Source: Escherichia coli (GTDB lineage Bacteria; Pseudomonadota; Gammaproteobacteria; Enterobacterales; Enterobacteriaceae). From it: a DNA stretch of 64,000 nt. Below are positions 7,154 through 50,050 of this stretch, piece by piece. Made by a program: the position numbers and the translations under genes. How positions within the stretch are numbered: the first letter of the stretch is position 1; each line of letters starts with the position of its first letter. The stretch lies in assembly GCF_003018235.1 (NCBI RefSeq), contig NZ_CP027437.1; one strand, given 5' to 3'. The notes beneath the pieces are model-generated. The model did no database searches. It saw only the letters and a program-made list of their open reading frames with translations, and was not told the origin of the DNA.

Positions 7154-7215
7154 CCTAAAGAATCAAGACGATCCGGTACGCGTGATTTTCTTTTCACATT
7201 AATCTGGTCAATAAC

Positions 7216-7243
7216 CTTGAATAATTGAGGGATGACCTCATTT
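7216..7243 (+). promoter_or_regulatory. Sigma32 heat-shock promoter of clpB (-35 CTTGAA, -10 CCTCATTT)
   Basis: Motif match to the sigma32 consensus, about 40 nt upstream of the clpB start. Confidence 0.6.
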
Positions 7244-7282
7244 AATCTCCAGTAGCAACTTTGATCCGTTATGGGAGGAGTT

Positions 7283-9856
7283 ATGCGTCTGGATCGTCTT
7301 ACTAATAAATTCCAGCTTGCTCTTGCCGATGCCCAATCACTTGCACTCGGGCACGACAACCAATTCATCGAACCACTTCATTTAATGAGCGCCCTGCTGA
7401 ATCAGGAAGGGGGTTCGGTTAGTCCTTTATTAACATCCGCTGGCATAAATGCTGGCCAGTTGCGCACAGATATCAATCAGGCATTAAATCGTTTACCGCA
7501 GGTTGAAGGTACTGGTGGTGATGTCCAGCCATCACAGGATCTGGTGCGCGTTCTTAATCTTTGCGACAAGCTGGCGCAAAAACGTGGTGATAACTTTATC
7601 TCGTCAGAACTGTTCGTTCTGGCGGCACTTGAGTCTCGCGGCACGCTGGCCGACATCCTGAAAGCAGCAGGGGCGACCACCGCCAACATTACTCAAGCGA
7701 TTGAACAAATGCGTGGAGGTGAAAGCGTGAACGATCAAGGTGCTGAAGACCAACGTCAGGCTTTGAAAAAATATACCATCGACCTTACCGAACGAGCCGA
7801 ACAGGGCAAACTCGATCCGGTGATTGGTCGTGATGAAGAAATTCGCCGTACCATTCAGGTGCTGCAACGTCGTACTAAAAATAACCCAGTACTGATTGGT
7901 GAACCCGGCGTCGGTAAAACTGCCATCGTTGAAGGTCTGGCGCAGCGTATTATCAACGGCGAAGTGCCGGAAGGGTTGAAAGGCCGCCGCGTACTGGCGC
8001 TGGATATGGGCGCGCTGGTGGCTGGGGCGAAATATCGCGGTGAGTTTGAAGAACGTTTAAAAGGCGTGCTTAACGATCTTGCCAAACAGGAAGGCAACGT
8101 CATCCTGTTTATCGACGAATTACATACCATGGTCGGCGCGGGTAAAGCCGATGGCGCAATGGACGCCGGAAACATGCTGAAACCGGCGCTGGCGCGTGGT
8201 GAATTGCACTGCGTAGGTGCCACGACGCTTGACGAATATCGCCAGTACATCGAAAAAGATGCTGCGCTGGAACGTCGTTTCCAGAAAGTGTTTGTTGCCG
8301 AGCCTTCTGTTGAAGATACCATTGCGATTCTGCGTGGCCTGAAAGAACGTTACGAATTGCACCACCATGTGCAAATTACTGACCCGGCAATTGTTGCAGC
8401 GGCGACGTTGTCTCATCGCTACATTGCTGACCGTCAGCTGCCGGATAAAGCCATCGACCTGATCGATGAAGCAGCATCCAGCATTCGTATGCAGATCGAC
8501 TCAAAACCAGAAGAACTCGACCGACTCGATCGTCGTATCATCCAGCTTAAACTGGAACAACAGGCGTTAATGAAAGAGTCTGATGAAGCCAGTAAAAAAC
8601 GCCTGGATATGCTCAACGAAGAACTGAGCGACAAAGAACGTCAGTACTCCGAGTTAGAAGAAGAGTGGAAAGCAGAGAAAGCATCGCTTTCTGGTACACA
8701 GACCATTAAAGCGGAACTGGAACAGGCGAAAATCGCTATTGAACAGGCTCGCCGTGTGGGTGACCTGGCGCGGATGTCTGAACTGCAATACGGCAAAATC
8801 CCGGAACTGGAAAAGCAACTGGAAGCCGCAACGCAGCTCGAAGGCAAAACTATGCGTCTGTTGCGTAATAAAGTGACCGATGCCGAAATTGCTGAAGTGC
8901 TGGCGCGTTGGACGGGGATTCCGGTTTCTCGCATGATGGAAAGCGAGCGCGAAAAACTGCTGCGTATGGAGCAAGAGCTGCACCATCGCGTTATTGGTCA
9001 GAACGAAGCGGTTGATGCGGTATCTAACGCTATTCGTCGTAGCCGTGCGGGGCTGGCGGATCCAAATCGCCCGATTGGTTCATTCCTGTTCCTCGGCCCA
9101 ACGGGTGTGGGGAAAACTGAGCTTTGTAAGGCGCTGGCGAACTTTATGTTTGATAGCGACGAGGCGATGGTCCGTATCGATATGTCCGAGTTTATGGAGA
9201 AACACTCGGTGTCTCGTCTGGTTGGTGCGCCTCCGGGATATGTCGGTTATGAAGAAGGTGGCTACCTGACCGAAGCGGTGCGTCGTCGTCCGTATTCCGT
9301 CATCCTGCTGGATGAAGTGGAAAAAGCGCATCCGGATGTCTTCAACATTCTGTTGCAGGTACTGGATGATGGGCGTCTGACTGACGGGCAGGGGAGAACG
9401 GTCGACTTCCGTAATACGGTTGTCATTATGACCTCTAACCTCGGTTCCGATTTGATTCAGGAACGCTTCGGTGAACTGGATTATGCGCACATGAAAGAGC
9501 TGGTGCTCGGTGTGGTAAGCCATAACTTCCGTCCGGAATTCATTAACCGTATCGATGAAGTGGTGGTCTTCCATCCGCTGGGTGAACAGCACATTGCGTC
9601 GATTGCGCAGATTCAGTTGAAACGTCTGTACAAACGTCTGGAAGAACGTGGTTATGAAATCCACATTTCTGACGAGGCGCTGAAACTGCTGAGCGAGAAC
9701 GGTTACGATCCGGTCTATGGTGCACGTCCTCTGAAACGTGCTATCCAGCAGCAGATCGAAAACCCGCTGGCACAGCAAATACTGTCTGGTGAATTGGTTC
9801 CGGGTAAAGTTATTCGCCTGGAAGTTAATGAAGACCGGATTGTCGCCGTCCAGTAA
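7283..9856 (+). CDS. clpB: Disaggregase chaperone ClpB (AAA+); internal GTG at 7727 (codon 149) is the known start of the short ClpB isoform
   Basis: 857 aa from the ATG at 7283 (GGGAGGAG Shine-Dalgarno); the ORF track begins 4 codons earlier at 7271; two Walker A motifs. Confidence 0.95.
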
Positions 9857-10297: not shown

Positions 10298-11839
<1,542 letters not shown>

Positions 11840-11924
11840 CCTTAAAGAACTGTGCTTTGCAGTGCTCACACAGATTGTCTGATGAAAAGTGAAAAGCAAG
11901 GCGTCTTGCGAAGCAGACTGATAC

Positions 11925-12000
11925 GTCCCCTTCGTCTAGAGGCCCAGGACACCGCCCTTTCACGGCGGTAACAGGGGTTCGAATCCCCTAGGGGACGCCA
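11925..12000 (+). tRNA. gltW: tRNA-Glu (UUC) in the 16S-23S spacer
   Basis: GTCCCCTTCGTCTAGAGG ... GGGGACGCCA, 76 nt ending in CCA. Confidence 0.95.
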
Positions 12001-12193
12001 CTTGCTGGTTTGTGAGTGAAAGTCACCTGCCTTAATATCTCAAAACTCATCTTCGGGTGACGTTTGAGATATTTGCTCTTTAAAAATCTGGATCAAGCTG
12101 AAAATTGAAACACTGAACAACGAAAGTTGTTCGTGAGTCTCTCAAATTTTCGCAACACGATGATGAATCGAAAGAAACATCTTCGGGTTGTGA

Positions 12194-15097
<2,904 letters not shown>

Positions 15098-15189
15098 ACA
15101 ACGCCGAAGCTGTTTTGGCGGATGAGAGAAGATTTTCAGCCTGATACAGATTAAATCAGAACGCAGAAGCGGTCTGATGAAACAGAATT

Positions 15190-15309
15190 TGCCTGGCGGC
15201 CTTAGCGCGGTGGTCCCACCTGACCCCATGCCGAACTCAGAAGTGAAACGCCGTAGCGCCGATGGTAGTGTGGGGTCTCCCCATGCGAGAGTAGGGAACT
15301 GCCAGGCAT
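15190..15309 (+). rRNA. rrfG: 5S ribosomal RNA
   Basis: TGCCTGGCGGC ... GCCAGGCAT; 120 nt. Confidence 0.97.
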
Positions 15310-26969: not shown

Positions 26970-28304
26970 TTACTCTTCTGTCGTTTGCGGTGGCACGCCC
27001 GTTCCGCTCGGTTTACGGCGCTTACCAATATTTTTGGTGTCGCGATGGCGTTTTTTCACCCGCGGCTTCTCTTTCTCTTTAGCTTTTTTCTTCTCGGCGC
27101 GTTTTGCCAGTACTTTCTTCGATGGCTTGCCGGTTTGCTTCTCGCTTGGCGCACGCGTTTTCGGGCGTAACTCATCAATTACACGAGCTTTAATTGGCTC
27201 TTCAATATAGCGACCAACTTTGCCCAGCAGCAGATGGTCATGGGCTTCTACCAGCGAAATTGCGGTGCCTTTACGACCGGCGCGCGCGGTACGTCCGATA
27301 CGGTGCAAATAAGTATCACCACTGCGCGGCATATCGAAGTTAAAGACGTGGCTGACATCAGGAATGTCGATACCGCGTGCAGCAACATCGGTGGCAACCA
27401 GTACGTTTACGCGGCCTTCGGTCAAACGCTTGATCGCTTCGTTACGCTTGCCTTGTACCATCTCACCTTCGAGATAGCAGTTGTTGATGCCCGCTTCGCG
27501 CAGCCAGTTTGCCAGCTCATGCACACGCTCACGCTTACGCACAAACACAATTGAGCGGGTCGCTTCCGGCTGTTTTAACAGATGCACCAGCAATGCGGTT
27601 TTATGTTCCAGGTCATCGGCGCGGTAATACCACTGATGAATTTTTTTGCGCTCACGGGTGGACGGATTGGCAGAAACCTCCACCGGATCTTCCAGCAGAC
27701 GCTCGGCAAAGTCTTGAATCGCATCGCCTTCCAGAGTTGCCGAAAAGAGCAGGGTCTGTTTACGCCAGCGCGTTTCGCCAGCAATATGTTCGATATCCTG
27801 AGCGAAGCCCATATCCAGCATACGGTCTGCTTCGTCGAGGATCAGCGTTTCAACCGCGCGGCAATCGAAGTTCTCTTCTTTTATGTATTGCAGCAGACGT
27901 CCGGTCGTGGCGACCACGATGTCCTGATTTTCGCTGAACACTTCCGCGTGGTTCATATAGGCTACGCCGCCGGTGATGGTGGCAATATCCAGATGCGTAT
28001 GTTTCGCCAGTTCGCGGGCATGATCGGCTACCTGCATCGCCAGCTCGCGAGTTGGGGTGAGGATCAAAATACGCGGCGGACCGGATTTCTTACGTGGGAA
28101 ATCGAGCAGGTGCTGCAACGCTGGCAGCAGATACGCCGCCGTTTTACCGGTGCCTGTCGGCGCAGAACCGAGTACATCACGGCCATCGAGCGCAGGCGGA
28201 ATGGCGGCAGCCTGAATGGCGGTCGGGCGAGTGAAACCTTTATCCTGGAGGGCTTCCAGCAGGCTTTCGTCGAGTTCAAGTTCGGAAAAAGTCGTTACAG
28301 TCAT
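26970..28304 (-). CDS. srmB: ATP-dependent DEAD-box RNA helicase SrmB
   Basis: 444 aa; DEAD, SAT and Walker A motifs; basic C-terminal tail. Confidence 0.95.
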
Positions 28305-28435: not shown

Positions 28436-30789
<2,354 letters not shown>

Positions 30790-31077
30790 TTAATTTACTA
30801 AACACGGTTTGGTCAGCATAGCATCATGTTGTGCGATTAAACACCTGCTATTTTAATATTTGTTACAGTGGCTAAACACGCTGACGCAGGGCGGCGAGAA
30901 AAAGAGAAGTTACTGGCTGGTGGAGGATTAGGTGGTGAAATAAAAAGGCCGTTGGGTTACTCTTCAGGCAGTTAAATGGGCATTTCTACACAGATAATGC
31001 GATGTTCAGATTCTGTAGACTTATAATGATAGATAATGATCCGTCTACAGCATGACAAACAAAAACAGATGCGTTAC

Positions 31078-31105
31078 GGAACTTTACAAAAACGAGACAC
31101 TCTAA
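31078..31105 (+). promoter_or_regulatory. SigmaE-dependent promoter (rpoE P2): -35 GGAACTT, 16-bp spacer, -10 TCTAA
   Basis: Consensus match about 85 nt upstream of the rpoE start. Confidence 0.7.
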
Positions 31106-31187
31106 CCCTTTGCTTGCTCAAATTGCAGCTAATGGAGTGGCGTTTCGATAGCGCGTGGAAATTTGGTTTGGGGAGACTTTACCTCGG

Positions 31188-31763
31188 ATGAGCGAGCAGT
31201 TAACGGACCAGGTCCTGGTTGAACGGGTCCAGAAGGGAGATCAGAAAGCCTTTAACTTACTGGTAGTGCGCTATCAGCATAAAGTGGCGAGTCTGGTTTC
31301 CCGCTATGTGCCGTCGGGTGATGTTCCCGATGTGGTACAAGAAGCTTTTATTAAAGCCTATCGTGCGCTGGATTCGTTCCGGGGAGATAGCGCTTTTTAT
31401 ACATGGCTGTATCGGATTGCTGTAAATACAGCGAAAAATTACCTGGTTGCTCAGGGGCGTCGTCCACCTTCCAGTGATGTGGATGCCATTGAAGCTGAAA
31501 ACTTCGAAAGTGGCGGCGCGTTGAAAGAAATTTCGAACCCTGAGAACTTAATGTTGTCAGAAGAACTGAGACAGATAGTTTTCCGAACTATTGAGTCCCT
31601 CCCGGAAGATTTACGCATGGCAATAACCTTGCGGGAGCTGGATGGCCTGAGCTATGAAGAGATAGCCGCTATCATGGATTGTCCGGTAGGTACGGTGCGT
31701 TCACGTATCTTCCGAGCGAGGGAAGCTATTGATAACAAAGTTCAACCGCTTATCAGGCGTTGA
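31188..31763 (+). CDS. rpoE: RNA polymerase sigma factor sigmaE (ECF, envelope stress)
   Basis: 191 aa from the internal Met (MSEQLTDQ...). Confidence 0.95.
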   Translation: MSEQLTDQVLVERVQKGDQKAFNLLVVRYQHKVASLVSRYVPSGDVPDVVQEAFIKAYRALDSFRGDSAFYTWLYRIAVNTAKNYLVAQGRRPPSSDVDAIEAENFESGGALKEISNPENLMLSEELRQIVFRTIESLPEDLRMAITLRELDGLSYEEIAAIMDCPVGTVRSRIFRAREAIDNKVQPLIRR

Positions 31764-31795
31764 CGATAGCGGGATACTGGATAAGGGTATTAGGC

Positions 31796-32446
31796 ATGCA
31801 GAAAGAACAACTTTCCGCTTTAATGGATGGCGAAACGCTGGATAGTGAGCTGCTTAACGAACTGGCTCATAACCCAGAAATGCAGAAAACCTGGGAAAGC
31901 TATCACTTAATCCGTGACTCAATGCGGGGTGATACTCCCGAGGTGCTCCATTTCGATATCTCTTCACGCGTGATGGCCGCCATTGAAGAAGAGCCAGTAC
32001 GTCAACCGGCGACATTGATCCCGGAAGCCCAGCCTGCGCCGCATCAATGGCAGAAAATGCCATTCTGGCAGAAAGTACGTCCGTGGGCGGCACAGCTTAC
32101 CCAAATGGGCGTAGCCGCATGCGTATCGCTTGCAGTTATCGTTGGCGTCCAGCACTATAATGGACAATCTGAAACGTCCCAGCAGCCCGAAACGCCGGTA
32201 TTTAATACACTGCCGATGATGGGTAAAGCCAGCCCGGTTAGCTTGGGAGTACCTTCTGAAGCGACCGCAAATAATGGTCAACAGCAGCAGGTACAGGAGC
32301 AGCGTCGTCGCATTAATGCAATGTTGCAGGATTACGAACTGCAACGCCGACTCCACTCTGAACAGCTTCAGTTTGAGCAGGCGCAAACTCAGCAAGCCGC
32401 TGTACAGGTGCCAGGAATTCAAACTTTAGGAACGCAATCGCAGTAA
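31796..32446 (+). CDS. rseA: Anti-sigma-E factor RseA
   Basis: 216 aa from MQKEQLSAL...; single transmembrane segment. Confidence 0.95.
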   Translation: MQKEQLSALMDGETLDSELLNELAHNPEMQKTWESYHLIRDSMRGDTPEVLHFDISSRVMAAIEEEPVRQPATLIPEAQPAPHQWQKMPFWQKVRPWAAQLTQMGVAACVSLAVIVGVQHYNGQSETSQQPETPVFNTLPMMGKASPVSLGVPSEATANNGQQQQVQEQRRRINAMLQDYELQRRLHSEQLQFEQAQTQQAAVQVPGIQTLGTQSQ

Positions 32447-33402
32447 TGAAGCAACTTTGGTTTGCCATGTCATTAGTGACAGGTAGCCTGTTATTCTCTG
32501 CTAACGCCTCGGCCACTCCCGCGTCCGGGGCGTTATTACAGCAGATGAACCTGGCCAGTCAGTCACTGAATTACGAGCTGTCATTCATCAGCATCAATAA
32601 ACAGGGTGTTGAGTCTCTGCGTTATCGACATGCACGCCTCGATAACCGTCCTCTTGCACAATTGTTGCAAATGGATGGCCCGCGCCGGGAAGTGGTACAG
32701 CGCGGCAATGAAATCAGCTATTTTGAACCGGGACTTGAACCGTTCACGCTTAATGGCGATTACATTGTTGATTCTCTACCATCGCTCATCTATACCGATT
32801 TCAAACGCCTTTCTCCTTACTACGACTTTATCTCCGTCGGGCGCACGCGTATTGCTGATCGTCTTTGCGAAGTCATTCGTGTGGTTGCCCGAGATGGTAC
32901 ACGCTACAGCTACATCGTGTGGATGGACACCGAATCGAAATTACCGATGCGGGTTGATCTCCTTGATCGCGATGGTGAAACGCTGGAACAATTTCGCGTG
33001 ATTGCTTTTAATGTCAATCAGGATATCAGCAGCAGTATGCAGACGCTGGCGAAGGCAAATTTGCCGCCGTTGCTTTCTGTTCCTGTAGGTGAAAAAGCTA
33101 AATTCAGCTGGACGCCAACCTGGTTGCCACAGGGTTTTAGCGAAGTTTCCAGTAGTCGACGTCCGCTACCGACGATGGACAACATGCCTATCGAATCACG
33201 TCTCTATTCCGACGGATTATTCAGCTTCTCGGTAAACGTTAACCGCGCTACGCCATCGAGCACCGATCAGATGTTGCGCACCGGGCGCAGAACCGTCAGT
33301 ACAAGCGTACGTGATAACGCCGAAATCACCATTGTCGGTGAACTGCCGCCGCAAACGGCGAAACGCATTGCCGAGAATATTAAGTTCGGGGCAACGCAAT
33401 GA
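32446..33402 (+). CDS. rseB: SigmaE regulatory protein RseB (periplasmic)
   Basis: 318 aa; TAATG overlap with rseA. Confidence 0.95.
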   Translation: MKQLWFAMSLVTGSLLFSANASATPASGALLQQMNLASQSLNYELSFISINKQGVESLRYRHARLDNRPLAQLLQMDGPRREVVQRGNEISYFEPGLEPFTLNGDYIVDSLPSLIYTDFKRLSPYYDFISVGRTRIADRLCEVIRVVARDGTRYSYIVWMDTESKLPMRVDLLDRDGETLEQFRVIAFNVNQDISSSMQTLAKANLPPLLSVPVGEKAKFSWTPTWLPQGFSEVSSSRRPLPTMDNMPIESRLYSDGLFSFSVNVNRATPSSTDQMLRTGRRTVSTSVRDNAEITIVGELPPQTAKRIAENIKFGATQ

Positions 33403-33878
33403 TCAAAGAGTGGGCTACCGTCGTCTCCTGGGAAAACGGGCAGGCGCTGGTTAGTTGTGATGTTAAAGCCTCATGCAGCAGCTGCGCTTCACGTGCCGGT
33501 TGCGGTAGCCGCGTGTTGAATAAACTTGGCCCGCAAACCACGCATACCATTGTCGTACCCTGTGATGAGCCGTTAGTGCCGGGGCAAAAAGTAGAATTAG
33601 GAATCGCCGAAGGCAGCCTGCTTAGCTCCGCATTACTGGTTTATATGTCGCCGCTGGTGGGATTATTCCTCATCGCTTCACTATTTCAGCTACTCTTTGC
33701 TTCAGATATTGCAGCATTATGCGGTGCGATTCTCGGTGGCGTTGGTGGATTCCTGATTGCACGTGGCTGCTCTCGAAAGTTTGCTGCCCGGGCAGAATGG
33801 CAACCGATCATCTTAAGCGTGGCATTGCCGCCTGGCCTTGTGCGATTTGAAACATCTTCGGAAGACGCGAGCCAGTGA
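33399..33878 (+). CDS. rseC: RseC (SoxR-reducing system / sigmaE regulatory protein)
   Basis: 159 aa; ATGA overlap with rseB. Confidence 0.9.
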   Translation: MIKEWATVVSWENGQALVSCDVKASCSSCASRAGCGSRVLNKLGPQTTHTIVVPCDEPLVPGQKVELGIAEGSLLSSALLVYMSPLVGLFLIASLFQLLFASDIAALCGAILGGVGGFLIARGCSRKFAARAEWQPIILSVALPPGLVRFETSSEDASQ

Positions 33879-34075
33879 TTTCACTGGCTTTGTTGCATTT
33901 TGCATAACAAATGCGAGGACGTTTCCAGATACCACAATCCATACGGTATGAACATTTCCTCGCCTCAATGTTGTAGTGTAGAATGCGGCGTTTCTATTAA
34001 TACAGACGTTAAGCTCAGAACAGCGACTTCTAAAAGCCTGGTTAACCGGGCATTAAGGCACAATAATCATACTTT

Positions 34076-35875
<1,800 letters not shown>

Positions 35876-36915: not shown

Positions 36916-37107
36916 TTATGAGATAAATCTCCCGTGGCTAACGACATCCCCCGTCGTTGTGTATAGAATATTCCCCCGAAGTTTAAGGTTGGCACCTCCA
37001 GGTTGCCACGGCACACGAAACAGCGTTGGTCCCCATATACCGGTAAACTGAAACTGCAGCGAAGCAGTTAGCAGAACCATGTATATCAGGTCTGTTTCGT
37101 GTGCTGA

Positions 37108-38720
<1,613 letters not shown>

Positions 38721-40583: not shown

Positions 40584-40605
40584 AAAAATACCGTTCTCTT
40601 TATAA

Positions 40606-40680
40606 AGTAAAACCCCCGAACTGGTAAGGAACGGGGGTTTTCACTTTACAACTTTAATTTTGTGCAGCACACGATTCCAA
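40606..40680 (-). ncRNA. ohsC: Putative OhsC antisense sRNA (antitoxin of shoB); extent approximate
   Basis: Known K-12 arrangement (divergent from shoB); minus-strand terminator at 40608..40641 and a candidate -10 CATAAT about 40689..40694; boundaries are inferred. Confidence 0.3.
40608..40641. terminator. Bidirectional hairpin terminator (acpS on +; presumed ohsC on -)
   Basis: CCCCCG / CGGGGG stem flanked by an A-run and a T-run. Confidence 0.7.
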
Positions 40681-41004
40681 CAGAAATGATTATGGATCAA
40701 TTTCGTTATCCTGTACAAGCAACTTGCAATCTCTGACATAAAAAACGCGAGCCTTTACGAAGAAATCGACATTGATAAAAAGATTAACGTGACCGCTTTT
40801 TGATAAGTACATTAAAATCGGTTTCGTTATTGGCAATTTTGCTGTGCTTTACACCATGCCACTGAATTCCCCCATTGAAACGAGTGGTGTCGTCAAAGCT
40901 CTGGTGTGGAGTGCAGCACTCGATTCCAATAACTCGCACGTTCAGTTTTGGGGAGATGTAAGGGCTAATCTGAACGGCTGCATTCCTTGTTTAAGGAAAA
41001 ACGA

Positions 41005-49860: not shown

Positions 49861-50050
49861 AGTGGCTCATTCACCGACTTATGTCAGCCCCTTCGGGACG
49901 TGCTACATAAAATTCGAATGACGCACAACAAGGTGCCTGCCGTCCAACTTCTGATATCAGCGTAGCTATATCAACCATCGGGCGAAACGTCGAGTTAGGC
50001 ACCGCCTTATTCCATAACAAAGCCGGGTAATTCCCGGCTTTGTTGTATCT
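49861..50050 (+). ncRNA. glmY: GlmY small RNA (regulator of glmS via GlmZ/RapZ)
   Basis: Starts AGTGGCTCATTCACCGACTTATGTCAGCCCCTTCGGG as recalled for GlmY; ends at the terminator AAAGCCGGGTAATTCCCGGCTTTGTT. Confidence 0.85.

What the first reader, a model, noticed from the sequence alone, without database searches (positions are those of the whole stretch)
31078..31187. SigmaE autoregulatory promoter upstream of rpoE-rseABC
GGAACTT-N16-TCTAA (31078..31105) matches the sigmaE consensus. The operon's gene junctions (rseA/rseB TAATG, rseB/rseC ATGA) suggest translational coupling.
Basis: partly seen in the sequence, partly recalled or inferred. Interest (0 to 1): 0.25.

Follow-up and report, generated by a model that had tools for sequence, protein, structure and literature searches.

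The report
Known sigma-E promoter of E. coli rpoE

Summary
GGAACTT-N16-TCTAA lies at 31078-31105; 0 of 100 shuffles gave a match. GAACTT-N16-TCNAA sits at the same offset in 113 of 120 Enterobacterales rpoE loci, while spacer and discriminator vary. The window is E. coli chromosome. This is the classical autoregulated sigma-E promoter, formerly rpoE P2, now P6, one of six promoters ahead of rpoE. Predicted +1 is G31112, giving a 76-nt leader. Verdict: already known, low interest.

- The interval is not intergenic. It lies inside rseD (31036-31191), whose stop overlaps the rpoE ATG. That is the junction with published translational coupling. Sigma-E transcripts start 76 nt after the rseD ATG, so they cannot use it.
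- CsrA is reported to bind the leader.
- A second sigma-E promoter, rseA P3, lies inside rpoE (31534-31561, +1 G31568).

The TAATG and ATGA junctions are real and conserved, but coupling there is only inferred.

One possibly new point: the first 8-9 nt of the sigma-E transcript (GCUUGCUCR) are nearly invariant across about 30 genera and complementary to UGAGCGAGC at the rpoE start. Folding places this helix in 95 of 96 distinct leaders. There is no compensatory covariation, so it remains a hypothesis.

The parts
31053..31077 (+). A-rich block upstream of the -35 (ACAAACAAAAACAGATGCGTTAC), a possible UP-like element
   Evidence: AAAAACA.A.GCGT.AC is conserved in most Enterobacteriaceae in the alignment. 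Rhodius 2006 reports A/T-rich sequence upstream of sigma-E -35 elements. Its function here is inferred.
31078..31084 (+). -35 element GGAACTT of the sigma-E promoter (rpoE P2, now P6)
   Evidence: GAACTT is nearly invariant in 43 representative leaders and present in 113 of 120 loci. The consensus is from PMC1312014.
31085..31100 (+). 16-nt spacer
   Evidence: The length is conserved and the sequence varies freely between genera. 16 nt is the preferred sigma-E spacing.
31101..31105 (+). -10 element TCTAA
   Evidence: At this locus the element is TCTAA in 75 loci, TCAAA in 21, TCCAA in 16 and TCGAA in 1. The consensus is TCAAA.
31106..31111 (+). Discriminator CCCTTT (6 nt)
   Evidence: Variable in sequence among genera. 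A 5/6-nt length is typical.
31112..31112 (+). Predicted transcription start, G (MG1655 coordinate 2,710,088, minus strand)
   Evidence: Consensus geometry, the first base of the invariant block, and coordinate mapping. The start was not mapped experimentally here, and I could not retrieve the published start-site coordinate.
31112..31120 (+). Invariant 5' block GCTTGCTC plus a purine; proposed 5' arm of a closing helix
   Evidence: Alignments, alifold and pair counts.
31112..31187 (+). 76-nt rpoE leader of the sigma-E transcript, with GGA motifs at 31134-36, 31157-59, 31172-74 and 31186-88
   Evidence: Sequence. CsrA is reported to bind three sites in the rpoE leader, one on the Shine-Dalgarno and one on the start codon (Yakhnin 2017 as summarised in PMC7652899). 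Assigning GGA motifs to those sites is my inference.
31170..31175 (+). Shine-Dalgarno GGGGAG of rpoE, predicted to pair with CCUC at 31182-31185
   Evidence: Fold and alifold, which keeps 3 invariant pairs. TTTGGGGAGAC.TTACCTCGGATG is invariant in nearly all genera.
31189..31197 (+). UGAGCGAGC (U and G of the AUG, codons 2-3 and the first base of codon 4); proposed 3' arm of the closing helix
   Evidence: Synonymous variation is zero or near zero at codons 2-6.
31036..31191 (+). rseD, a 51-codon rpoE leader peptide gene; its TGA (31189-31191) overlaps the rpoE ATG (31188-31190)
   Evidence: ORF list, RefSeq annotation, and the published coupling (and the abstract of Yakhnin 2017 recalled from memory). 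The full-length frame is found only in Escherichia, Salmonella and Citrobacter plus sporadic others.
31188..31763 (+). rpoE (sigma-E, an ECF sigma factor)
   Evidence: Pfam Sigma70_r2, Sigma70_r4_2 and Sigma70_ECF; RefSeq annotation.
31534..31568 (+). rseA P3, a second sigma-E promoter inside rpoE: CGAACCC (31534-40), N16, TCAGA (31557-61), +1 G31568
   Evidence: The start lies 228 nt before the rseA ATG at 31796, as published (PMC8595263). The block is conserved, including synonymous sites at codons 113-123.
31796..32446 (+). rseA (anti-sigma-E factor)
   Evidence: Pfam RseA_N and RseA_C; annotation.
32446..33402 (+). rseB; its ATG overlaps the rseA TAA (TAATG, 32444-32448)
   Evidence: The junction is conserved in 56 of 65 loci.
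33399..33878 (+). rseC; its ATG overlaps the rseB TGA (ATGA, 33399-33402)
   Evidence: The junction is conserved in 56 of 62 loci, and the other 6 have TGATG.
33869..33900 (+). Terminator-like hairpin and T-rich tail at the end of rseC, the likely end of the operon
   Evidence: Consensus scan only. Not tested.

Best explanation
The site is the sigma-E-dependent, positively autoregulated promoter of the E. coli rpoE operon, formerly called rpoE P2 and now P6. When the anti-sigma factor RseA is degraded during envelope stress, free sigma-E joins core RNA polymerase. The holoenzyme recognises GGAACTT (31078-84) and TCTAA (31101-05) across a 16-nt spacer and starts transcription at or next to G31112. 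The transcript has a 76-nt leader followed by rpoE, rseA, rseB and rseC, so sigma-E raises its own synthesis and that of its inhibitors. This gives a positive loop with built-in negative feedback. A second sigma-E promoter inside rpoE, rseA P3, reinforces the negative arm. The promoter lies inside the leader gene rseD. Sigma-E-initiated transcripts therefore lack the rseD start codon and cannot use the published rseD-rpoE translational coupling, which only transcripts from the five upstream promoters can use. Translation of rpoE from the leader is further reported to be repressed by CsrA. Shown here: the motif, its geometry, its conservation, the gene layout and the overlap with rseD. Taken from the literature: sigma-E dependence, autoregulation, the six promoters, CsrA binding and rseD coupling. 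Inferred: the exact +1, and the consequence for coupling.
For: The match is exact and unique, with 0 of 100 shuffles matching. The geometry fits the consensus from 28 mapped sigma-E promoters (PMC1312014). GAACTT-N16-TCNAA is at the same offset in 113 of 120 loci from about 30 genera, with a variable spacer and discriminator. The window is E. coli: 5425 of 5426 complete genomes match. The annotated layout is nadB, rseD, rpoE, rseA, rseB, rseC, lepA, and Pfam domains confirm the four proteins. Literature: the autoregulated P6 (ex-P2) promoter is recognised by the sigma-E holoenzyme and is one of six promoters (PMC6358824). [quoted passage not shown] CsrA binds three leader sites (PMC7652899).
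Against: The primary papers (Rouviere 1995, Raina 1995, Klein 2016, Yakhnin 2017) were not readable, and the TSS supplement tables searched did not contain the coordinate. The -10 is 4 of 5 to TCAAA. One review calls the sigmaS-dependent P4 one of the most active rpoE promoters, so this promoter is one input among several. London 2021 writes that this promoter drives the 'entire rseD-rpoE-...' transcript, which conflicts with the coordinates here if +1 is 31112.
Confidence: 0.95

Rival explanations
1. The motif is a chance match, and rpoE is transcribed only from the upstream sigma70, sigma54 and sigmaS promoters.
For: With 2 mismatches allowed, such motifs occur at the chance rate (3 found, 3.65 expected). 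Five other promoters exist upstream.
Against: No shuffle gave an exact match. Position and spacing are kept in 113 of 120 loci while the spacer sequence varies. The literature says the promoter is recognised by the sigma-E holoenzyme.
Confidence: 0.01
2. The conservation of this stretch reflects selection on the RseD peptide and not on a promoter.
For: The motif lies inside the annotated rseD gene. RseD is similar among Escherichia, Salmonella and Citrobacter.
Against: The full-length rseD frame is absent from Klebsiella (0/5), Enterobacter (0/12), Kluyvera (0/7), Kosakonia, Raoultella and most other genera, yet the promoter blocks persist. Within rseD, the codons of the spacer vary while the -35, -10, +1 and Shine-Dalgarno blocks do not. 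RseD's conserved residues read as translations of those blocks (NGTL, CLL, GLGRLYLG). Pfam finds no family for RseD.
Confidence: 0.02
3. Addition to the main reading, not an alternative. The invariant first 8-9 nt of the sigma-E transcript (GCUUGCUCR, 31112-31120) pair with UGAGCGAGC (31189-31197) at the rpoE start, next to a hairpin pairing the Shine-Dalgarno with CCUC. This would occlude the initiation region of the sigma-E isoform, capping runaway autoinduction, and/or form a 5'-terminal helix that protects the mRNA from 5'-end-dependent decay. On longer transcripts, rseD translation would melt this helix, which would explain the coupling.
For: The block is invariant while its flanks vary. 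The helix is in the MFE and centroid folds, in the consensus fold and in 95 of 96 distinct leaders. 99.7% of cells are paired, against 23-44% when the partner is slid. All 5'-side changes keep pairing: C to U gives G.U, and position 9 is always A or G opposite U. The helix starts exactly at the predicted +1. Predicted probability is 1.00 for RNA starting at 31112 or 31100 and 0.00 for RNA starting at 31036 or further upstream. Two distant orthologues, L181 and L187, fold with their 5' end on the start codon or the Shine-Dalgarno using different sequences.
Against: There is no compensatory double change, so the support is conservation and not covariation. The fold z-scores are -1.4 and -0.3. 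The 3' arm is coding and lies in a 45-nt invariant stretch that CsrA sites and ribosome binding could also explain. Synonymous constraint runs on to codon 6, beyond the helix. Shuffling the 5' 9 nt still leaves 63% of the start region paired in the MFE. The distant examples were hand-anchored. I could not read Yakhnin 2017, which may already describe or refute such a structure.
Confidence: 0.3
4. The invariant +1 to +8 block acts at the DNA level, for example in promoter escape or start-site selection by the sigma-E holoenzyme or as a regulator binding site, and not as RNA.
For: It abuts the discriminator and start site. Rhodius 2006 notes weak conservation around +1 in sigma-E promoters.
Against: Rhodius 2006 reports no strong downstream element. 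The exact 8-9-nt complementarity to the start-codon region would then be a coincidence.
Confidence: 0.15

Closest known systems
E. coli K-12 rpoE P2 / P6 promoter (Rouviere 1995, Raina 1995, Rhodius 2006, Klein 2016)
   Same: It is the same locus. The 601-nt query spanning it is 100% identical to several E. coli genomes, and 5425 of 5426 genomes match at 95% identity or more. It has the same flanking genes and the described properties: sigma-E recognised and autoregulated.
   Different: Nothing differs. This is the known element itself.
Sigma-E regulon promoter consensus (GGAACTT-N16-TCAAA; Rhodius 2006, PMC1312014)
   Same: The -35 is 7 of 7, the spacer is 16 nt, the discriminator is 6 nt, the +1 is a purine, and the upstream sequence is A-rich.
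   Different: The -10 is TCTAA and not TCAAA. TCTAA is the commonest form at this locus across genera, in 75 of 113 loci.
rseA P3, the internal sigma-E promoter of the same operon
   Same: It has the same sigma factor, the same 16-nt spacing and a 6-nt discriminator with G at +1. It is also embedded in a coding sequence.
   Different: Its -35 is weaker (CGAACCC) and its -10 is TCAGA. It drives only rseABC, with a 228-nt leader reported to be regulated by RyhB and FnrS.
algU (algT)-mucABCD operon of Pseudomonas, with AlgU-dependent autoregulated promoters (from memory, not tested)
   Same: An orthologous ECF sigma factor, anti-sigma factor and periplasmic regulator operon with positive autoregulation through GAACTT-type promoters. 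AlgU-like orthologues were retrieved.
   Different: Only 13 of 113 distant orthologues showed a motif within 220 nt under my criteria. Leader sequences are unrelated, and there is no rseD.
5'-terminal stem-loops that stabilise mRNAs such as the ompA leader, and leader-to-start-codon helices that underlie translational coupling (from memory; relevant only to the helix hypothesis)
   Same: The predicted helix begins at nt +1 and occludes the start codon.
   Different: No stability or translation data exist here, and no covariation was found.

Membership tests
Sigma-E (RpoE, ECF) dependent promoter | -35 element GGAACTT | tested here: met
   7 of 7 at 31078-31084.
Sigma-E (RpoE, ECF) dependent promoter | Spacer of 15-19 nt, 16 preferred | tested here: met
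   16 nt. 113 of 120 loci have exactly 16.
Sigma-E (RpoE, ECF) dependent promoter | -10 element TCAAA-like | tested here: met
   TCTAA, 4 of 5. The TC and the final AA are kept across the 113 motif-bearing loci.
Sigma-E (RpoE, ECF) dependent promoter | 5/6-nt discriminator and a purine start, with the -35 to +1 distance 25-28 nt | tested here: met
   CCCTTT then G31112, 27 nt after the -35. This is sequence geometry only.
Sigma-E (RpoE, ECF) dependent promoter | Conserved at the orthologous position in related genomes | tested here: met
   113 of 120 Enterobacterales loci.
Sigma-E (RpoE, ECF) dependent promoter | Transcription from this start requires the sigma-E holoenzyme | not testable with these tools
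   Reported in the literature (PMC6358824; PMC1312014). The primary papers were not readable.
rpoE-rseABC (sigma-E / anti-sigma) operon | Gene order: ECF sigma, RseA, RseB, RseC | tested here: met
   Pfam Sigma70_r2/r4_2/ECF, RseA_N and RseA_C, MucB_RseB with its C-terminal domain, and RseC_MucC. RefSeq annotation agrees.
Translationally coupled gene pair | Stop codon of the upstream gene overlaps or abuts the start codon of the downstream gene | tested here: met
   rseD/rpoE ATGA at 31188-91, rseA/rseB TAATG and rseB/rseC ATGA. The last two are conserved in 56 of 65 and 56 of 62 loci. The rseD/rpoE ATGA is uninformative by itself, because rpoE codon 2 is AGC in all loci.
Translationally coupled gene pair | Downstream translation falls when upstream translation is blocked | not testable with these tools
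   Published for rseD-rpoE only. The figure of a more than 50% drop is recalled from the abstract of Yakhnin 2017; the leader-peptide role is cited. I found nothing for rseA/rseB or rseB/rseC.
Structured RNA leader (5'-end to start-codon helix) | Compensatory base-pair changes across relatives | tested here: not met
   0 pairs have changes on both sides, and 3 pairs have one-sided compatible changes. The sequences are too conserved to decide.
Structured RNA leader (5'-end to start-codon helix) | Folds more stably than shuffled sequence | tested here: not met
   z = -1.41 for 94 nt and -0.29 for 149 nt.
Known Rfam family at the promoter or leader | Match at gathering score | tested here: not met
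   No Rfam family matches 31000-31300. The nearest is AsrC at 33363-34194.

The most novel reading that the evidence does not exclude
The sigma-E-initiated rpoE mRNA may be a structurally distinct isoform. Its first 8-9 nt (GCUUGCUCR) are invariant across about 30 enterobacterial genera. They would pair with the rpoE start codon and codons 2-4, next to a hairpin that pairs the Shine-Dalgarno with CCUC, giving a closed initiation region that begins at nt +1. That would restrain translation and/or stabilise the mRNA specifically for the autoregulatory transcript, a post-transcriptional brake on the positive feedback loop. Longer transcripts from the upstream promoters are predicted not to form the helix, and in Escherichia, Salmonella and Citrobacter they can open the region by translating rseD. 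On this reading rseD is a recent overprint on older regulatory RNA and DNA, not a conserved protein.
Probability: 0.3. Interest if true: 0.4.

Novelty: already known. Interest (0 to 1): 0.12.

Why it matters
The promoter is the core of the sigma-E envelope-stress circuit, which is essential in E. coli, and it is textbook material, so confirming it adds nothing new. The promoter sits inside rseD, so the only published translational coupling in this operon cannot act on the autoregulatory transcript. The operon also has a second internal sigma-E promoter. If the 5'-end to start-codon helix is real, it would show that the choice among the six rpoE promoters sets how well the message is translated or how long it lasts, and not only how much of it is made. 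That would be a modest but testable addition to a heavily studied circuit.

Tried and rejected
- Primary papers: Klein 2016, Yakhnin 2017 and Thomason 2015 are not held. I relied on reviews and on Rhodius 2006.
- Published start-site coordinate: searching paper texts for the MG1655 coordinates gave only unrelated numbers. The Cappable-seq and Romero 2014 supplements did not contain them. A search for the promoter sequence string found nothing.
- Covariation from distant orthologues: a metagenome scan returned 120 RpoE/AlgU loci, but only 13 of 113 had a recognisable motif within 220 nt, and most were too diverged to align.
- A short uORF starting at the in-frame ATG 31132, downstream of +1, that might preserve coupling on the sigma-E transcript: rejected. 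That ATG is not conserved (TTG, GTG, ACG, TTT and others in other genera) and has no Shine-Dalgarno.
- 'ATGA' at the rpoE start as evidence for rseD: rejected as uninformative. It follows from Met-Ser (AGC) in all 117 loci.
- A CpxR box over the -35 (GTAAAGTTCCGTAAC, minus strand, 31073-31087): such sites are not more frequent than chance, 5 against 3.3 expected. Only a secondary source says Cpx represses rpoE-rseABC. It remains a lead.
- The sigma70 promoter scan of 30700-34100 found nothing in the nadB-rpoE gap, so I could not place the five upstream promoters.
- Fold stability gave non-significant z-scores.

Full report
**1. The observation**

Reading the window directly gives GGAACTT at 31078-31084, a 16-nt spacer (TACAAAAACGAGACAC) at 31085-31100 and TCTAA at 31101-31105. 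The pattern GGAACTT-N16-TCTAA occurs once in the 64 kb on both strands, and none of 100 dinucleotide-preserving shuffles contained it. With up to two mismatches the pattern is no longer distinctive, 3 found against 3.65 expected. The case therefore rests on the exact match, its position and its conservation.

The rseA TAA and rseB ATG form TAATG at 32444-32448. The rseB TGA and rseC ATG form ATGA at 33399-33402.

**2. Where we are**

A 601-nt query around the site matches 5425 of 5426 complete E. coli genomes, several at 100% identity, always once and on the chromosome.

RefSeq annotation, transferred to window coordinates, gives this layout:

| Gene | Strand | Window coordinates |
|---|---|---|
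| srmB | - | 26970-28304 |
| trmN/yfiC | + | ends 29173 |
| nadB | - | 29158-30780 |
| rseD | + | 31036-31191 |
| rpoE | + | 31188-31763 |
| rseA | + | 31796-32446 |
| rseB | + | 32446-33402 |
| rseC | + | 33399-33878 |
| lepA | + | from 34076 |
| lepB | + | from 35891 |

Pfam confirms an ECF sigma factor, RseA_N and RseA_C, MucB_RseB, and RseC_MucC. It finds no family for the 51-residue RseD.

In MG1655 the rpoE ATG is at 2,710,012 on the minus strand, so window 31112 corresponds to 2,710,088.

**3. What the site is**

Rhodius et al. 2006 derived the sigma-E consensus from 28 start sites mapped by 5' RACE. It consists of GGAACTT, a 15-19-nt spacer with 16 strongly preferred, TCAAA, a 5/6-nt discriminator and a purine at +1, with the -35 to +1 distance 25-28 nt and A/T-rich sequence upstream (PMC1312014).

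The window site has a perfect -35, a 16-nt spacer and a 4-of-5 -10. A 6-nt discriminator (CCCTTT) leads to G31112, 27 nt after the -35, and there is an A-rich tract upstream.

[quoted passage not shown] Klein and Raina (PMC6358824) state three things:
- Two 1995 studies showed the promoter to be recognised by the sigma-E holoenzyme and positively autoregulated.
- It was called rpoE P2 and is now P6.
- rpoE is transcribed from six promoters. P2 depends on sigma54 and QseF, P3 on sigma70 and RcsB, and P4 on sigmaS.

This is the known element. Sigma-E dependence itself cannot be tested with these tools.

**4. Independent check by conservation**

I retrieved rpoE loci from one genome per species using a degenerate pattern inside rpoE codons 11-23, which does not involve the promoter.

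GAACTT-N16-TCNAA is present at the same offset in 113 of 120 loci. The -10 is TCTAA in 75, TCAAA in 21, TCCAA in 16 and TCGAA in 1. The base before GAACTT is G in 83 and T in 30. The other seven loci have one mismatch or a 15-nt spacer.

In an alignment of 39 genus representatives, the spacer and discriminator vary freely while GAACTT and (C)TC.AA are almost invariant. That is the footprint expected of a functional promoter.

**5.

The interval 31078-31187 lies entirely inside rseD, annotated 'rpoE leader peptide'. Its TGA at 31189-31191 overlaps the rpoE ATG at 31188-31190.

According to the literature, rpoE is translationally coupled to this ORF, and the operon is now written rseD-rpoE-rseA-rseB-rseC (PMC8595263). 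The detail that loss of coupling halves rpoE translation is my recollection of the abstract of Yakhnin 2017, which I could not open.

The rseD ATG (31036) lies 76 nt upstream of the predicted +1 (31112). So the sigma-E-initiated transcript cannot encode RseD or use that coupling, which only transcripts from the upstream promoters can use. This follows from the coordinates and is an inference. It conflicts with one sentence in London 2021 saying that this promoter drives the entire rseD-containing transcript.

The full-length rseD frame, defined as an ATG upstream of the -35, has this distribution:

| Genus | Loci with full-length frame |
|---|---|
| Escherichia | 4/4 |
| Salmonella | 1/1 |
| Citrobacter | 14/14 |
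| Klebsiella | 0/5 |
| Enterobacter | 0/12 |
| Kluyvera | 0/7 |
| Kosakonia | 0/5 |
| Raoultella | 0/4 |

It is also absent from most other genera, with sporadic exceptions.

The conserved residues of RseD are translations of the regulatory blocks. NGTL comes from the -35, CLL from the +1 block, and GLGRLYLG from the Shine-Dalgarno-to-ATG stretch. The conservation of this DNA is therefore explained by the promoter and leader, not by the peptide.

**6. The leader**

From G31112 to the ATG is 76 nt. It contains GGA motifs at 31134-36, 31157-59, 31172-74 (inside the Shine-Dalgarno GGGGAG, 31170-75) and 31186-88 (overlapping the ATG).

CsrA is reported to bind three sites in the rpoE leader, one on the Shine-Dalgarno and one on the initiation codon, and to repress translation (PMC7652899). 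All candidate sites lie downstream of 31112, so CsrA control would apply to the sigma-E transcript. The assignment of motifs to sites is mine.

**7. A conserved block at the 5' end**

The alignments show that the first eight transcribed bases, GCTTGCTC, are nearly invariant across all genera, followed by a purine, while the bases on either side vary. A 45-nt stretch from TTTGGGGAGAC through ATGAGCGAGCAGTTAACGGA is also invariant.

GCUUGCUCR is complementary to UGAGCGAGC (31189-31197), which comprises the U and G of the AUG, codons 2-3 and the first base of codon 4.

Support for a helix:
- The MFE and centroid folds of the 94-nt and 149-nt RNAs both contain it. Next to it is a hairpin pairing GGGG of the Shine-Dalgarno with CCUC at 31182-85.
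- RNAalifold on 43 leaders keeps the helix.
- On that structure 99.7% of cells are paired, against 23-44% when the partner is slid by 1-3 columns.
- Every 5'-side substitution is compatible with pairing: C6 to U in four sequences, C8 to U in one, and A or G at position 9 (26 and 17 sequences) opposite U. The single break is in a Sodalis-like endosymbiont.
- The helix is in the MFE of 95 of 96 distinct leaders.
- For E. coli its predicted probability is 1.00 for RNAs starting at 31112 or 31100, and 0.00 for RNAs starting at 31036 or further upstream. In those, the transcribed promoter sequence pairs with the middle of the leader instead.
- Two metagenomic orthologues with different sequences fold with their predicted 5' end on the start codon (L181) or on the Shine-Dalgarno (L187).

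Points against:
- No pair shows a compensatory double change.
- The z-scores are -1.4 and -0.3.
- Shuffling the 5' 9 nt still leaves 63% of the start region paired in the MFE.
- The distant examples were anchored by hand.
- Synonymous constraint at the start runs from codon 2 to codon 6, beyond the helix.

I rate this hypothesis at about 0.3. It may already be covered in a paper I could not read.

**8. Synonymous-site scan as a control**

Across 101 distinct rpoE coding sequences the median synonymous entropy is 0.99 bit. It falls to about zero in three places:
- Codons 2-6, the start region.
- Codons 113-123.
- Codons 182-186.

The second interval is the internal promoter rseA P3. I place it at CGAACCC (31534-40), N16, TCAGA (31557-61), a 6-nt discriminator and +1 at G31568. 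That is exactly 228 nt before the rseA ATG, as published. This shows that the measure detects embedded regulatory elements.

The third interval (31731-31745) is unexplained. It lies in the rseA P3 leader, overlapping the end of the published FnrS pairing region and downstream of the RyhB one.

**9. The coupling remark**

The rseA/rseB TAATG overlap is kept in 56 of 65 loci. The rseB/rseC ATGA overlap is kept in 56 of 62, and the other six have TGATG. The arrangement is conserved and compatible with coupling, but I found no experiment on it, so it remains an inference.

**10. Verdict**

The element is already known. Interest is low (0.12).

The added value lies in four points:
- The correction about rseD.
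- The identification of the second sigma-E promoter.
- The lineage restriction of rseD.
- A testable but unproven leader-helix hypothesis.

Noticed in passing
window 33363-34194 (minus strand): Rfam match to AsrC, 'antisense RNA of rseC mRNA' (RF02746, 502.8 bits, full length). It runs opposite rseC and the rseC-lepA gap, so the 3' end of the operon has an annotated antisense transcript.
   Followed up: no
window 31534-31568: The second sigma-E promoter, rseA P3, lies inside rpoE: CGAACCC-N16-TCAGA with +1 at G31568, 228 nt before the rseA ATG. It is conserved at synonymous sites of rpoE codons 113-123.
   Followed up: yes
window 31731-31745 (rpoE codons 182-186): A third patch of near-zero synonymous variation in rpoE. 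It lies in the rseA P3 leader, overlapping the end of the published FnrS pairing region and downstream of the RyhB one. The cause is unknown.
   Followed up: no
window 31036-31191, and loci L002-L121: The full-length rseD reading frame is restricted to Escherichia, Salmonella and Citrobacter, with sporadic cases in Photorhabdus (2/10) and Pantoea (1/15). Its conserved residues are translations of the -35, +1 and Shine-Dalgarno blocks. This suggests an overprinted ORF and not a conserved protein.
   Followed up: partly
window 30787-30804, 30828-30844, 30861-30878: A perfect palindrome, TGTTTAATTTACTAAACA, lies 7 nt upstream of the nadB ATG (0.14 expected by chance). It fits the NadR operator as I recall it, and also the QseF UAS consensus TGT-N12-ACA quoted in PMC6075780. 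Two further TAAACA-containing sites follow in the nadB-rpoE gap, where the sigma54/QseF-dependent rpoE promoter is reported to lie.
   Followed up: no
window 31073-31087 (minus strand): A CpxR-like direct repeat, GTAAAGTTCCGTAAC, overlaps the -35. A secondary source says Cpx represses rpoE-rseABC. However, one-mismatch sites of this kind are not more frequent than chance in the window, 5 against 3.3 expected.
   Followed up: partly
window 49861-50008: GlmY sRNA (Rfam, 147 bits). glmY and rpoE are the two QseF/sigma54 targets named in PMC6075780, and both lie in this 64-kb window.
   Followed up: no
window 10298-15307; 36978-37192; 7164-7302; 40604-40681 (minus strand): Other Rfam matches: a ribosomal RNA operon (16S, tRNA, 23S, 5S), the rncO leader of rnc, RyfD, and the OhsC antitoxin RNA.
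   Followed up: no
window 33869-33900: A terminator-like hairpin (9 pairs) with a T-rich tail starts within the last codons of rseC. It is the likely end of the operon.
   Followed up: no
locus L071: A contig titled 'Martelella alba BGMRC 2031' (an alphaproteobacterial name) carries an rpoE leader nearly identical to those of Sodalis and Acerihabitans. The record may be mislabelled or contaminated.
   Followed up: no
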